From Escherichia coli (lineage in GTDB: Bacteria; Pseudomonadota; Gammaproteobacteria; Enterobacterales; Enterobacteriaceae), in the NCBI RefSeq assembly GCF_003334355.1, contig NZ_QOWP01000098.1: a DNA stretch of 1,031 bases, one strand, 5' to 3'. Of this stretch, positions 1-1,031 are shown one piece after another (position 1 is the stretch's first letter; each line of letters opens with the position of its first letter). A program made the position numbers and the translations under genes. The notes beneath the pieces are model-generated. The model saw only the letters and a list, made by a program, of their open reading frames with translations, was not told the origin of the DNA and made no database searches.

Positions 1-120
1 ATTGGTGCCCCCACCGGCGTGGCCTGTTCGGTGTGCCCCGGCGGAGTGACGTCCGGCCATCCGGTCAATCCCCTGCTCGGTGCAAAGGTCCTTCCCGGTG
101 AAACCGACATCGCCCTGCCC
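1..120 (+). other. C-terminal part of a PAAR-like domain (PAAR_RHS type) within the Rhs CDS; domain boundary approximate
   Basis: The segment IGAPTGVACSVCPGGVTSGHPVNPLLGAKVLPGETD has two Cys and one His in a Gly/Pro-rich context, consistent with the metal-binding cone of PAAR domains. It resembles the region just after the N-terminal PAAR motif of E. coli Rhs proteins. The start of the domain and of the gene should lie roughly 100 nt upstream of the window. Confidence 0.55.
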
Positions 121-1031
121 GCCCCGCTGCCGTTCATCCTCTCCCGCACCTACAGCAGTTACCGGACAAAAACGCCCGCGCCGGTGGGGAGCCTCGGCCC
201 CGGCTGGAAAATGCCTGCGGATATCCGCTTACAGCTGCGCGATAACACACTGATACTCAGTGATAACGGCGGCAGAAGCCTGTATTTTGAGCACCTGTTT
301 CCCGGTGAGGACGGTTACAGCCGCAGCGAGTCACTGTGGCTGGTGCGCGGCGGCGTCCTGAGACTGGATGAAGGTCACCGGCTGGCCGCACTCTGGCAGG
401 CGCTGCCGGAAGAACTCCGCTTAAGTCCGCATCGTTATCTGGCGACAAACAGTCCGCAGGGGCCGTGGTGGCTGCTCGGCTGGTGTGAGCGGGTGCCGGA
501 AGCGGATGAGGTGCTGCCTGCGCCGCTGCCGCCGTACCGGGTACTGACCGGGCTGGTGGACCGCTTCGGGCGCACACAGACGTTCCACCGCGAAGCCGCC
601 GGTGAATTCAGCGGCGAAATCACCGGCGTGACGGATGGTGCCGGGCGTCACTTCCGGCTGGTACTGACCACGCAGGCGCAGCGGGCAGAAGAAGCCCGGC
701 AGCAGGCCATTTCCGGCGGGACGGAACCGTCCGCTTTTCCTGATACCCTGCCGGGTTACACCGAATATGGCCGGGACAACGGCATCCGTCTGTCTGCCGT
801 GTGGCTGACGCACGACCCGGAATACCCGGAGAATTTACCTGCCGCGCCGCTGGTGCGCTATGGCTGGACGCCACGCGGCGAACTGGCGGTGGTGTATGAC
901 CGTAGTGGCAAACAGGTGCGCAGCTTTACTTACGATGATAAATACCGGGGCCGGATGGTGGCGCACCGTCACACGGGCCGGCCGGAAATCCGTTACCGTT
1001 ACGACAGCGACGGGCGGGTGACAGAACAGCT
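1..1031 (+). CDS. Rhs-family protein (PAAR-linked polymorphic toxin, probable T6SS effector), N-terminal region; partial CDS open at both ends, codon phase starts at nt 1
   Basis: Frame +1 is open for all 343 codons, which is very unlikely by chance over 1 kb. The translation carries hallmark Rhs N-terminal stretches (GAPTGVACSVCPGG, NPLLGAKVLPGETD, LPFILSRTYSSYRTKTPAPVG, GPWWLLGWCERVP, LPAPLPPYRVLTG, GEITGVTDGAGRHFRLVLTTQAQRAEEAR) and ends in YD-repeat motifs (RYRYDSDGRV). Codon usage (ctg, ccg, gcg, ggc) fits Enterobacteriaceae. The family is recognised from memory of E. coli Rhs proteins; the paralog (rhsA/B/C/D-like) cannot be assigned without a search. Confidence 0.9.
   Translation, partial: MGAPTGVACSVCPGGVTSGHPVNPLLGAKVLPGETDIALPAPLPFILSRTYSSYRTKTPAPVGSLGPGWKMPADIRLQLRDNTLILSDNGGRSLYFEHLFPGEDGYSRSESLWLVRGGVLRLDEGHRLAALWQALPEELRLSPHRYLATNSPQGPWWLLGWCERVPEADEVLPAPLPPYRVLTGLVDRFGRTQTFHREAAGEFSGEITGVTDGAGRHFRLVLTTQAQRAEEARQQAISGGTEPSAFPDTLPGYTEYGRDNGIRLSAVWLTHDPEYPENLPAAPLVRYGWTPRGELAVVYDRSGKQVRSFTYDDKYRGRMVAHRHTGRPEIRYRYDSDGRVTEQ
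880..939 (+). other. YD-repeat-like motif within the Rhs CDS (ELAVVYDRSGKQVRSFTYDD)
   Basis: YD dipeptides followed by R/G-rich turns fit the beta-hairpin YD/RHS repeat pattern. This is a protein-level repeat, not a DNA repeat. Confidence 0.5.
976..1031 (+). other. Canonical RHS/YD repeat within the Rhs CDS (GRPEIRYRYDSDGRVTEQ)
   Basis: RYRYDSDGRV matches the RHS repeat consensus RxxYxYDxxGR(L/V). This marks the start of the repeat shell that continues beyond the window. Confidence 0.7.

What the first reader, a model, noticed from the sequence alone, without database searches (positions are those of the whole stretch)
1..1031. High GC content with a local AT-rich dip at about 241-300
Hand counts on 60-nt blocks give about 72% GC (1-60), 68% (181-240), 72% (301-360) and 67% (361-420), against 43% (241-300) and 52% (901-960). 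I did not count the whole window, but it looks to be about 60-65% GC. Established knowledge: Rhs core regions in E. coli are markedly more GC-rich than the roughly 51% host genome, a classic sign of horizontal origin. The dip at 241-300 encodes DNTLILSDNGGRSLYFEHL and may simply reflect D/N/I/Y/F codons.
Basis: seen in the sequence. Interest (0 to 1): 0.25.

Follow-up and report, generated by a model that had tools for sequence, protein, structure and literature searches.

The report
GC-rich start of E. coli Rhs gene
The window is the first kilobase of an Escherichia coli Rhs toxin gene, whose GC-richness is long known, and the small AT-rich dip is the codon footprint of a conserved Asp/Asn/Ile/Phe-rich peptide in the protein's N-terminal plug, so the finding is real but ordinary.

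Summary
The window is 64.9% GC (GC3 72.6%).

The window is 100% identical to nt 82-1112 of a chromosomal E. coli rhs gene. That gene has a 62.3% GC core and a 31% GC tip, and sits in 52.7% GC flanks. This is the textbook Rhs composition.

The dip is not a breakpoint and not a DNA signal.
- The amino acids alone predict 51.5% GC for this block, the lowest of 17 blocks.
- The homologous block is the lowest-GC block in 22 of 33 homologues from about 14 enterobacterial species, where the peptide LILNDNGGRSIHF is conserved.
- Once amino acids are accounted for, no AT excess remains across those homologues (-0.8 ± 3.4 points).
- Among 11 E. coli alleles only one site in 241-300 varies.
- The peptide aligns with the last hairpin of the N-terminal plug (DUF6531) of the solved Rhs toxin Tse5.

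One nuance on the "horizontal origin" reading: the Rhs segment exceeds its host flank by 5-16 points in all 26 loci tested, and 6.1 of the window's 10.8-point excess comes from amino-acid composition. So GC-richness here does not by itself show recent import into E. coli. Verdict: already known, low interest.

The parts
1..1031 (+). Open reading frame 1 with no stop: codons 28-370 of a 1394-codon E. coli rhs gene, in the GC-rich 'core' part
   Evidence: Translation. 100% identity to NZ_CP147048.1 153255-154285, inside the CDS at locus L001 19920-24104. NCBIfam NF041261 RHS_core, E = 6.7e-211, profile positions 28-378.
1..60 (+). End of the short N-terminal fragment (protein residues 28-47), up to the predicted N-terminal self-cleavage site His47|Pro48 (window aa 20|21, nt 58-63)
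   Evidence: Chain 8cp6_B of Tse5 starts at the residue aligned to window aa 21. Tse5 is cleaved between Lys47 and Pro48 (PMC10684867). Cleavage in the E. coli protein is inferred, not shown.
55..288 (+). DUF6531, the N-terminal plug domain that closes the Rhs shell
   Evidence: Pfam PF20148, aa 19-96, E = 2.4e-17 and 8.5e-18 on the N-terminal 200 residues of the gene product. The Tse5 N-terminal plug is residues 48-124 and corresponds to DUF6531.
241..300 (+). The AT-rich dip (45.0% GC). It encodes DNTLILSDNGGRSLYFEHLF, the last beta-hairpin of the plug
   Evidence: GC count. GC expected from the amino acids is 51.5%. The block aligns with Tse5 residues 105-124, which include Gln114 and Arg116-Pro121, the residues that anchor the Tse5 N-terminal fragment. 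Peptide and dip are conserved in homologues.
301..1031 (+). Beginning of the YD-repeat beta-shell of the Rhs protein
   Evidence: Alignment to the Tse5 shell, query 259-336 against chain residues 189-269. Weak Pfam RHS_repeat hits at aa 291-342.
901..960 (+). Second, shallower GC low (53.3%), encoding RSGKQVRSFTYDDKYRGRMV
   Evidence: Expected GC from the amino acids is 55.6%; P(simulated <= observed) = 0.33.

Best explanation
The window is the 5' kilobase of an E. coli rhs gene of the RhsA/B/C/F subfamily. It encodes the end of the N-terminal fragment, the DUF6531 plug and the first YD repeats of the shell that encloses a C-terminal toxin. Its high GC (64.9%) is the known compositional signature of Rhs cores. 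That signature has two parts: a Gly/Pro/Arg-rich and Lys/Ile/Asn/Met-poor protein, and GC-rich synonymous codons. The local dip at 241-300 is a passive consequence of protein sequence. The conserved plug hairpin (consensus LILNDNGGRSIHF) is made of amino acids whose codons are AT-rich at positions 1 and 2 and which take A/T-ending codons more often. It is neither a junction between DNAs of different origin nor a DNA-level signal. Shown here: the identity of the gene, the composition figures, the amino-acid accounting, and conservation across species. Inferred: the structural role of the hairpin, from its alignment to Tse5.
For: Identity and copy number. Composition: core 62.3%, tip 31.3%, downstream ORF 30.6%, flanks 52.7%. 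Source of the excess: 10.8 points over neighbouring coding sequences, made up of 6.1 points from amino-acid composition and 4.7 points from synonymous choice. Dip: expected 51.5% against observed 45.0%, with P = 0.06 before correction for 17 blocks, and r = 0.89 between observed and expected block GC. Family-wide pattern: the homologous block averages 51.3 ± 3.9% against 60.8-72.4% for the other blocks, and is the lowest block in 22 of 33 homologues. Residual after conditioning on amino acids: -0.8 ± 3.4 points, negative in 55% of homologues. Synonymous conservation is average: 0.578, within a range of 0.47-0.625. Among 11 E. coli alleles only one variable site (276) lies in 241-300. Structural mapping to the Tse5 N-terminal plug. 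The GC-rich core with an AT-rich tip is described in the literature (PMC2935791).
Against: In this particular allele the block is 6.5 points (4 bases) below the amino-acid expectation. It uses several A/T-ending or rare codons (ATA, AGA, AGT, ACA, GAT x2, TAT, TTT x2). That is nominally P = 0.06, so a small lineage-specific synonymous contribution cannot be excluded. RhsD shows only a shallow dip there (58.3%). The structural role rests on a sequence alignment to Tse5, not on a model of this protein.
Confidence: 0.93

Rival explanations
1. The GC excess is an unameliorated relic of a fairly recent transfer of the Rhs core into E. coli from a high-GC donor. This is the classical reading, which the first reader cites.
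For: GC3 is 72.6% in the window and 73.2% in the core, against 58.4% in 32 neighbouring genes. The element is absent from about 28% of complete E. coli genomes (3,902 of 5,426 have a match). [quoted passage not shown]
Against: The same excess, +5.1 to +16.4 points, is present in all 26 loci with full flanks, from about 14 enterobacterial species with flanks of 50-59% GC. So the excess is a property of the family, not of an E. coli import. Amino-acid composition accounts for 6.1 of the window's 10.8 points. Jackson et al. 2009 conclude that the lineages predate the Enterobacteriaceae. Polymorphisms polarised with E. albertii give S>W 41 and W>S 28 on 65% GC sequence, so per-site rates are about equal and there is no clear decay towards host GC. 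This last test is weak.
Confidence: 0.2
2. The dip at 241-300 marks a recombination breakpoint or mosaic junction between segments of different ancestry.
For: The window is strongly mosaic: the four-gamete test gives a minimum of 13 recombination events (Rmin) among 11 alleles, and one of the 13 intervals (138-336) spans the dip. In strain WL297 a 3,241-nt internal deletion has its left end at window nt 320.
Against: The interval 138-336 is long only because no informative site lies within 139-335, so nothing places an event in the dip itself. Sequence on both sides of the dip is equally GC-rich and belongs to one domain. The dip and its peptide are conserved in homologues of 53-94% amino-acid identity, which a junction formed within E. 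coli would not be. The WL297 deletion is a single-strain event 20 nt past the dip, at a 3-nt CAG microhomology.
Confidence: 0.03
3. The dip is a functional DNA or RNA element inside the gene, such as an internal promoter, a nucleoid-protein nucleation site or a translational pause made of rare codons.
For: It is the most AT-rich 60 nt in the window and contains the rare codons ATA and AGA. This allele is 6.5 points below the amino-acid expectation.
Against: There is no sigma-70-like site anywhere in the window. There is no systematic synonymous AT enrichment across 33 homologues. Synonymous-site conservation is average. At 45% GC the block is only slightly below the E. coli genome average.
Confidence: 0.03

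Closest known systems
E. coli K-12 RhsA, RhsB and RhsC (the RhsA/B/C/F subfamily of Hill and colleagues; clade I of Jackson et al. 2009)
   Same: 99.3%, 99.3% and 98.2% nucleotide identity over all 1031 nt, colinear and without gaps. Same gene layout: a GC-rich core, then an AT-rich tip, then a small downstream ORF.
   Different: The 100% match sits between rpmE and yiiX/metJ, not at the K-12 rhsA, rhsB or rhsC sites. It is followed by an ORF annotated 'dsORF-f3', so the locus looks RhsF-type (the RhsF assignment is from memory of Zhao & Hill 1995, which is not held). The window carries VLR instead of VAK at aa 119-121.
E. coli K-12 RhsD (RhsD/E subfamily)
   Same: Homologous over the whole window with 76% nucleotide identity. 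It is GC-rich (64.0% over its first 3600 nt), and the block homologous to 241-300 is also its lowest.
   Different: Its dip is shallow: 58.3% GC and GC3 75%, with peptide DDGLILNDNGGRSIHFEPLL.
Pseudomonas aeruginosa Tse5 (PDB 8cp6, 9i9y), a T6SS Rhs pore-forming toxin
   Same: The N-terminal plug and first shell repeats align with the window (E = 2.6e-22). The processed chain starts at the residue aligned to window aa 21, and protein numbering gives a 47|48 junction in both.
   Different: A distant relative: the matched stretches cover query 21-158 and 259-336, the latter weakly. The residue before the cleavage site is Lys in Tse5 and His here. The toxin domain differs: the parent gene's tip is DUF4329, not the Tse5 pore-former. 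Many E. coli strains carrying this rhs, K-12 included, have no T6SS (from general knowledge, not tested here).
Rhs family protein of PDB 7q97
   Same: Plug region aligns (E = 1.1e-07, query 14-138).
   Different: It has a much longer N-terminal region (the match starts at chain residue 238) and similarity is low.

Membership tests
E. coli Rhs element core protein (NCBIfam NF041261 RHS_core; RhsA/B/C/F subfamily) | Sequence match to the RHS_core profile and to annotated rhs genes | tested here: met
   703 bits, E = 6.7e-211, over profile positions 28-378 of 1261. The 2000-bit cut-off is for a whole protein and cannot be reached by a 343-aa fragment. 100% nucleotide identity to genes annotated as RHS element core protein or RhsC.
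E. coli Rhs element core protein (NCBIfam NF041261 RHS_core; RhsA/B/C/F subfamily) | GC-rich core of about 1200 codons, much richer than the host chromosome | tested here: met
   Window 64.9%, core nt 1-3600 62.3%, flanks 52.7%, and neighbouring genes at most 58.7%. The feature is defined in PMC2935791.
E. coli Rhs element core protein (NCBIfam NF041261 RHS_core; RhsA/B/C/F subfamily) | AT-rich variable C-terminal tip after the core, followed by a small AT-rich downstream ORF | tested here: met
   This lies outside the window, in the parent gene of L001. Gene nt 3751-4185 is 31.3% GC and the downstream ORF is 30.6% GC. The tip matches Pfam DUF4329.
E. coli Rhs element core protein (NCBIfam NF041261 RHS_core; RhsA/B/C/F subfamily) | YD repeats and the conserved core end (Pfam RHS PF03527; ...DPIGL motif) | tested here: met
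   Within the window there are only weak RHS_repeat hits (E about 1). In the parent gene, PF03527 matches at E = 4.8e-16, and the DNA encoding QGRYITQDPIG is seen at gene nt 3640 onward.
E. coli Rhs element core protein (NCBIfam NF041261 RHS_core; RhsA/B/C/F subfamily) | Toxin delivery with a cognate immunity protein (contact-dependent competition) | not testable with these tools
   This needs competition assays.
DUF6531 (PF20148), the Rhs N-terminal plug | Full-length match to the Pfam model | tested here: met
   Model positions 1-74 of 74, E = 2.4e-17.
DUF6531 (PF20148), the Rhs N-terminal plug | Self-cleavage immediately before the plug's first proline | not testable with these tools
   Only the alignment of His|Pro to the Tse5 Lys47|Pro48 junction is available. 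Confirmation needs protein chemistry.

The most novel reading that the evidence does not exclude
The GC-richness of Rhs cores is not a fossil of foreign origin. Instead it is actively maintained wherever the family lives, for example by GC-biased gene conversion among paralogues that recombine very often, on top of a Gly/Pro/Arg-rich shell. This would fit three observations: the excess is seen in every enterobacterial host examined, there are at least 13 recombination events among 11 alleles within 1 kb, and there is no clear GC-to-AT decay.
Probability: 0.2. Interest if true: 0.35.

Novelty: already known. Interest (0 to 1): 0.07.

Why it matters
It matters little. The GC-rich core and AT-rich tip of Rhs genes have been described since the 1990s, and the dip has a trivial protein-coding cause. 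Two modest points come out of the check. First, codon-position and amino-acid accounting should come before any "foreign GC" argument: here 6.1 of 10.8 points are protein composition. Second, the excess is family-wide rather than specific to E. coli, so it cannot date or direct a transfer event.

Tried and rejected
- **Shuffle tests for the dip within the window:** not significant (p = 0.12 and 0.16).
- **Recombination breakpoint:** an alignment of 11 alleles and a four-gamete analysis found mosaicism everywhere and nothing specific to 241-300.
- **Promoter and terminator scan:** no promoter-like site. Two overlapping terminator-like hairpins at 715-732 sit inside the ORF and are close to the shuffle expectation.
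- **Repeat search:** only short two-copy matches, probably chance.
- **Synonymous AT enrichment and synonymous conservation across 33 homologues:** neither is present.
- **Polarised substitution spectrum with E. albertii as outgroup:** S>W 41 against W>S 28. This is inconclusive, because the sample is small and the outgroup belongs to a recombining multigene family.
- **Primary papers of Hill's group:** PMC107404 and PMC176749 are not held. The RhsF assignment and the original GC figures therefore rest on Jackson et al. 2009 and on memory.
- **K-12 rhsE:** it lacks this part of the core, so it gave no match.
- **Structure prediction:** not run, because the sequence alignment to a solved Rhs structure was enough for this question.

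Full report
**1. Observation**

The window is 1031 nt and 64.9% GC. Frame 1 is open from end to end, with GC1 69.5%, GC2 52.6% and GC3 72.6%.

The lowest sliding 60-nt window starts at 241-242. Taken alone, that minimum is not unusual for a 1-kb sequence of this composition. A minimum this low appears in 11.5% of mononucleotide shuffles and 16.3% of codon shuffles.

**2. What the window is**

Megablast against 5,426 complete E. coli genomes finds 12,456 places in 3,887 genomes, with a median of 3 per genome, almost all chromosomal. Two records match at 100% and 2,464 at 99% or more. All matches lie inside genes annotated as RHS element core protein or RhsA/B/C. NCBIfam RHS_core matches profile positions 28-378 with E = 6.7e-211.

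In strain 19M19 the window is nt 82-1112 of a 4,185-nt gene between rpmE and yiiX/metJ. That gene is followed by an ORF annotated "RHS element protein dsORF-f3" and a frameshifted IS1. The window is 99.3% identical to K-12 rhsA and rhsB, 98.2% to rhsC and 76% to rhsD.

**3. Is the GC anomalous for the host?**

Yes. In locus L001 the composition is as follows:

| Region | GC |
|---|---|
| Core, gene nt 1-3600 | 62.3% (GC3 73.2%) |
| Tip, gene nt 3751-4185 | 31.3% |
| Downstream ORF | 30.6% |
| 35.6 kb of flanking chromosome | 52.7% |
| 32 flanking genes, pooled | 54.0% (GC3 58.4%; highest single gene 58.7%) |

[quoted passage not shown] 2009, PMC2935791).

**4. Where the excess comes from**

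If the window's protein is re-encoded with the codon usage of the neighbouring genes, the result is 60.3% GC. So of the 10.8-point excess over neighbouring coding sequences, 6.1 points come from amino-acid composition and 4.7 points from synonymous choice. The relevant composition differences are Gly 10.8%, Pro 9.0% and Arg 9.6% against 7.5%, 4.3% and 5.8% in the flanks, with Lys, Ile, Asn and Met depleted. For the whole core the split is 3.3 and 4.9 points.

**5. The excess is family-wide**

A scan of species-representative genomes returned 43 loci from about 14 enterobacterial species: E. albertii, Citrobacter, Pseudocitrobacter, Phytobacter, Buttiauxella, Atlantibacter, Lelliottia, Trabulsiella, Yokenella, Rahnella, Serratia and others.

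In all 26 loci with a full upstream flank, the segment homologous to the window is 58.5-68.3% GC and the upstream 9.7 kb is 49.7-58.6%. The excess ranges from +5.1 to +16.4 points, with a mean of +10.5.

Jackson et al. conclude that the rhs family is ancient and mostly predates the Enterobacteriaceae. Taken together, this means GC-richness is a property of the gene family. It does not by itself demonstrate a recent import into E. coli.

A rough polarised polymorphism count gives S>W 41 and W>S 28 on a 65% GC sequence. That shows no clear decay towards host GC, but the test is weak.

**6. The dip**

*This allele.* Conditioning on the amino-acid sequence and the core's own codon usage, block 241-300 is expected to be 51.5% GC. 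That is the lowest expectation of the 17 blocks. Observed and expected block GC correlate at r = 0.89. The remaining -6.5 points amount to 4 bases and have a one-sided P of 0.06 before correction for 17 blocks. Block 901-960 is likewise explained (expected 55.6%).

*Other species.* The peptide is conserved, with consensus xxLILNDNGGRSIHF. The homologous block averages 51.3 ± 3.9% GC against 60.8-72.4% for the other blocks, and is the lowest block in 22 of 33 non-identical homologues. After conditioning on amino acids the residual is -0.8 ± 3.4 points, negative in 55% of homologues. Codon identity at identical residues is 0.578, average for blocks that range from 0.47 to 0.625.

So the dip is real and old, but it is fully accounted for by the protein.

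**7. Why the peptide is conserved (inferred)**

Pfam places DUF6531 at aa 19-96. The solved Rhs toxin Tse5 (8cp6) aligns with E = 2.6e-22. Its processed shell chain begins at the residue aligned to window aa 21, and window aa 81-100 align with Tse5 residues 105-124.

In Tse5, residues 48-124 form the N-terminal plug (DUF6531) that closes the shell. Gln114 and Arg116-Pro121 anchor the N-terminal fragment (PMC10684867). The dip therefore encodes the last hairpin of the plug.

**8. Breakpoint hypothesis**

Among 11 E. coli alleles only one site (276) varies within 241-300. No parsimony-informative site lies within 139-335. Variation elsewhere is patchy, for example at 357-362, 414-423, 591-599 and 903-911, and the four-gamete test gives Rmin = 13 across the window. 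One of those 13 intervals (138-336) spans the dip, but only because that stretch holds no informative sites. Nothing singles out 241-300.

One strain, WL297, has a 3,241-nt internal deletion from window nt 320 to gene nt 3640 at a CAG microhomology. This is a single-strain pseudogene.

**9. DNA-signal hypothesis**

There is no sigma-70-like site in the window and no notable repeat.

**10. Verdict**

The feature is already known and has an ordinary cause. The only open point of any interest is whether the family-wide GC excess is maintained intrinsically, for example by biased gene conversion among recombining paralogues, rather than inherited from a foreign donor. My data neither establish nor exclude that.

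Noticed in passing
window 139-335: Among 11 E. coli alleles with 51 parsimony-informative sites in 1031 nt, none lies in this 197-nt stretch, where about 9.7 would be expected if they were spread evenly. It covers the second half of the plug domain and includes the dip. Across distant homologues synonymous conservation here is only average, so recent homogenisation by gene conversion seems more likely than a DNA-level constraint.
   Followed up: partly
window 357-362 and 903-911: Substitutions cluster into compact multi-base patches that assort independently among alleles. Examples are GTCCTGAGA (VLR) against GTGGCGAAA (VAK) or GTCCTGAAA (VLK), and AGTGGCAAA (SGK) against AGCAATACA (SNT). With a four-gamete Rmin of 13 among 11 alleles, this looks like short-tract gene conversion between rhs paralogues.
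   Followed up: partly
window 58-63 (aa 20|21, His|Pro; residues 47|48 of the whole protein): The processed shell chain of Tse5 (8cp6_B) begins exactly at the residue aligned to this proline. Tse5 is cleaved between Lys47 and Pro48, so the E. coli protein probably has the homologous N-terminal self-cleavage site at the same residue numbers.
   Followed up: partly
L007 3920-4863 (E. coli WL297, same rpmE-yiiX locus); left end at window nt 320: A 3,241-nt internal deletion removes nearly the whole core. It joins window nt 320 to gene nt 3640, just before the QGRYITQDPIG core end, at a 3-nt CAG microhomology. It shifts the frame and is annotated as two pseudogene pieces, DUF6531 and DUF4329.
   Followed up: yes
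window 552-559 (+): One exact Chi site (GCTGGTGG). At least one occurs in 17 of 200 shuffles, so it is unremarkable on its own.
   Followed up: yes
L015 (Oscillospiraceae MAG, 2.7-kb contig), L045 (Rheinheimera sp. A13L, 553-nt contig), L047 (Akkermansia MAG), L048 (Lentisphaerae MAG): Short contigs filed under unrelated phyla carry this Rhs core. L015 is 97.9% and L045 is 99.6% identical in nucleotides to the window; L047 and L048 are 67.5% and 75% identical, with frameshifts or stops. These are most likely mis-binned or contaminating enterobacterial DNA rather than true occurrences.
   Followed up: partly
L001 19920-24429 (strain 19M19) and hit tables: Annotation names do not track the locus. 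The gene at the rpmE-yiiX site is called 'rhsC' although it is followed by 'dsORF-f3' (RhsF-type). Near-identical copies at one position are variously named rhsA, rhsB, rhsC or 'RHS element core protein'.
   Followed up: no
L001 23700-24429 and 24499-25191: The parent gene's AT-rich tip (about 31% GC) matches Pfam DUF4329. It is followed by a 108-codon, 30.6% GC ORF that is presumably the cognate immunity gene, then by a frameshifted IS1.
   Followed up: partly
window 421-813 (-), 257-577 (-), 620-874 (-): There are long stop-free antisense ORFs of 130, 106 and 84 codons. These are expected in GC-rich coding DNA and nothing supports them as genes.
   Followed up: no
window 61-180: Strong negative GC skew (down to -0.48), reflecting a run of Pro/Leu/Thr/Ser codons (PVNPLL...LPAPLPFILSRTYSSYRTKTPAP).
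   Followed up: no
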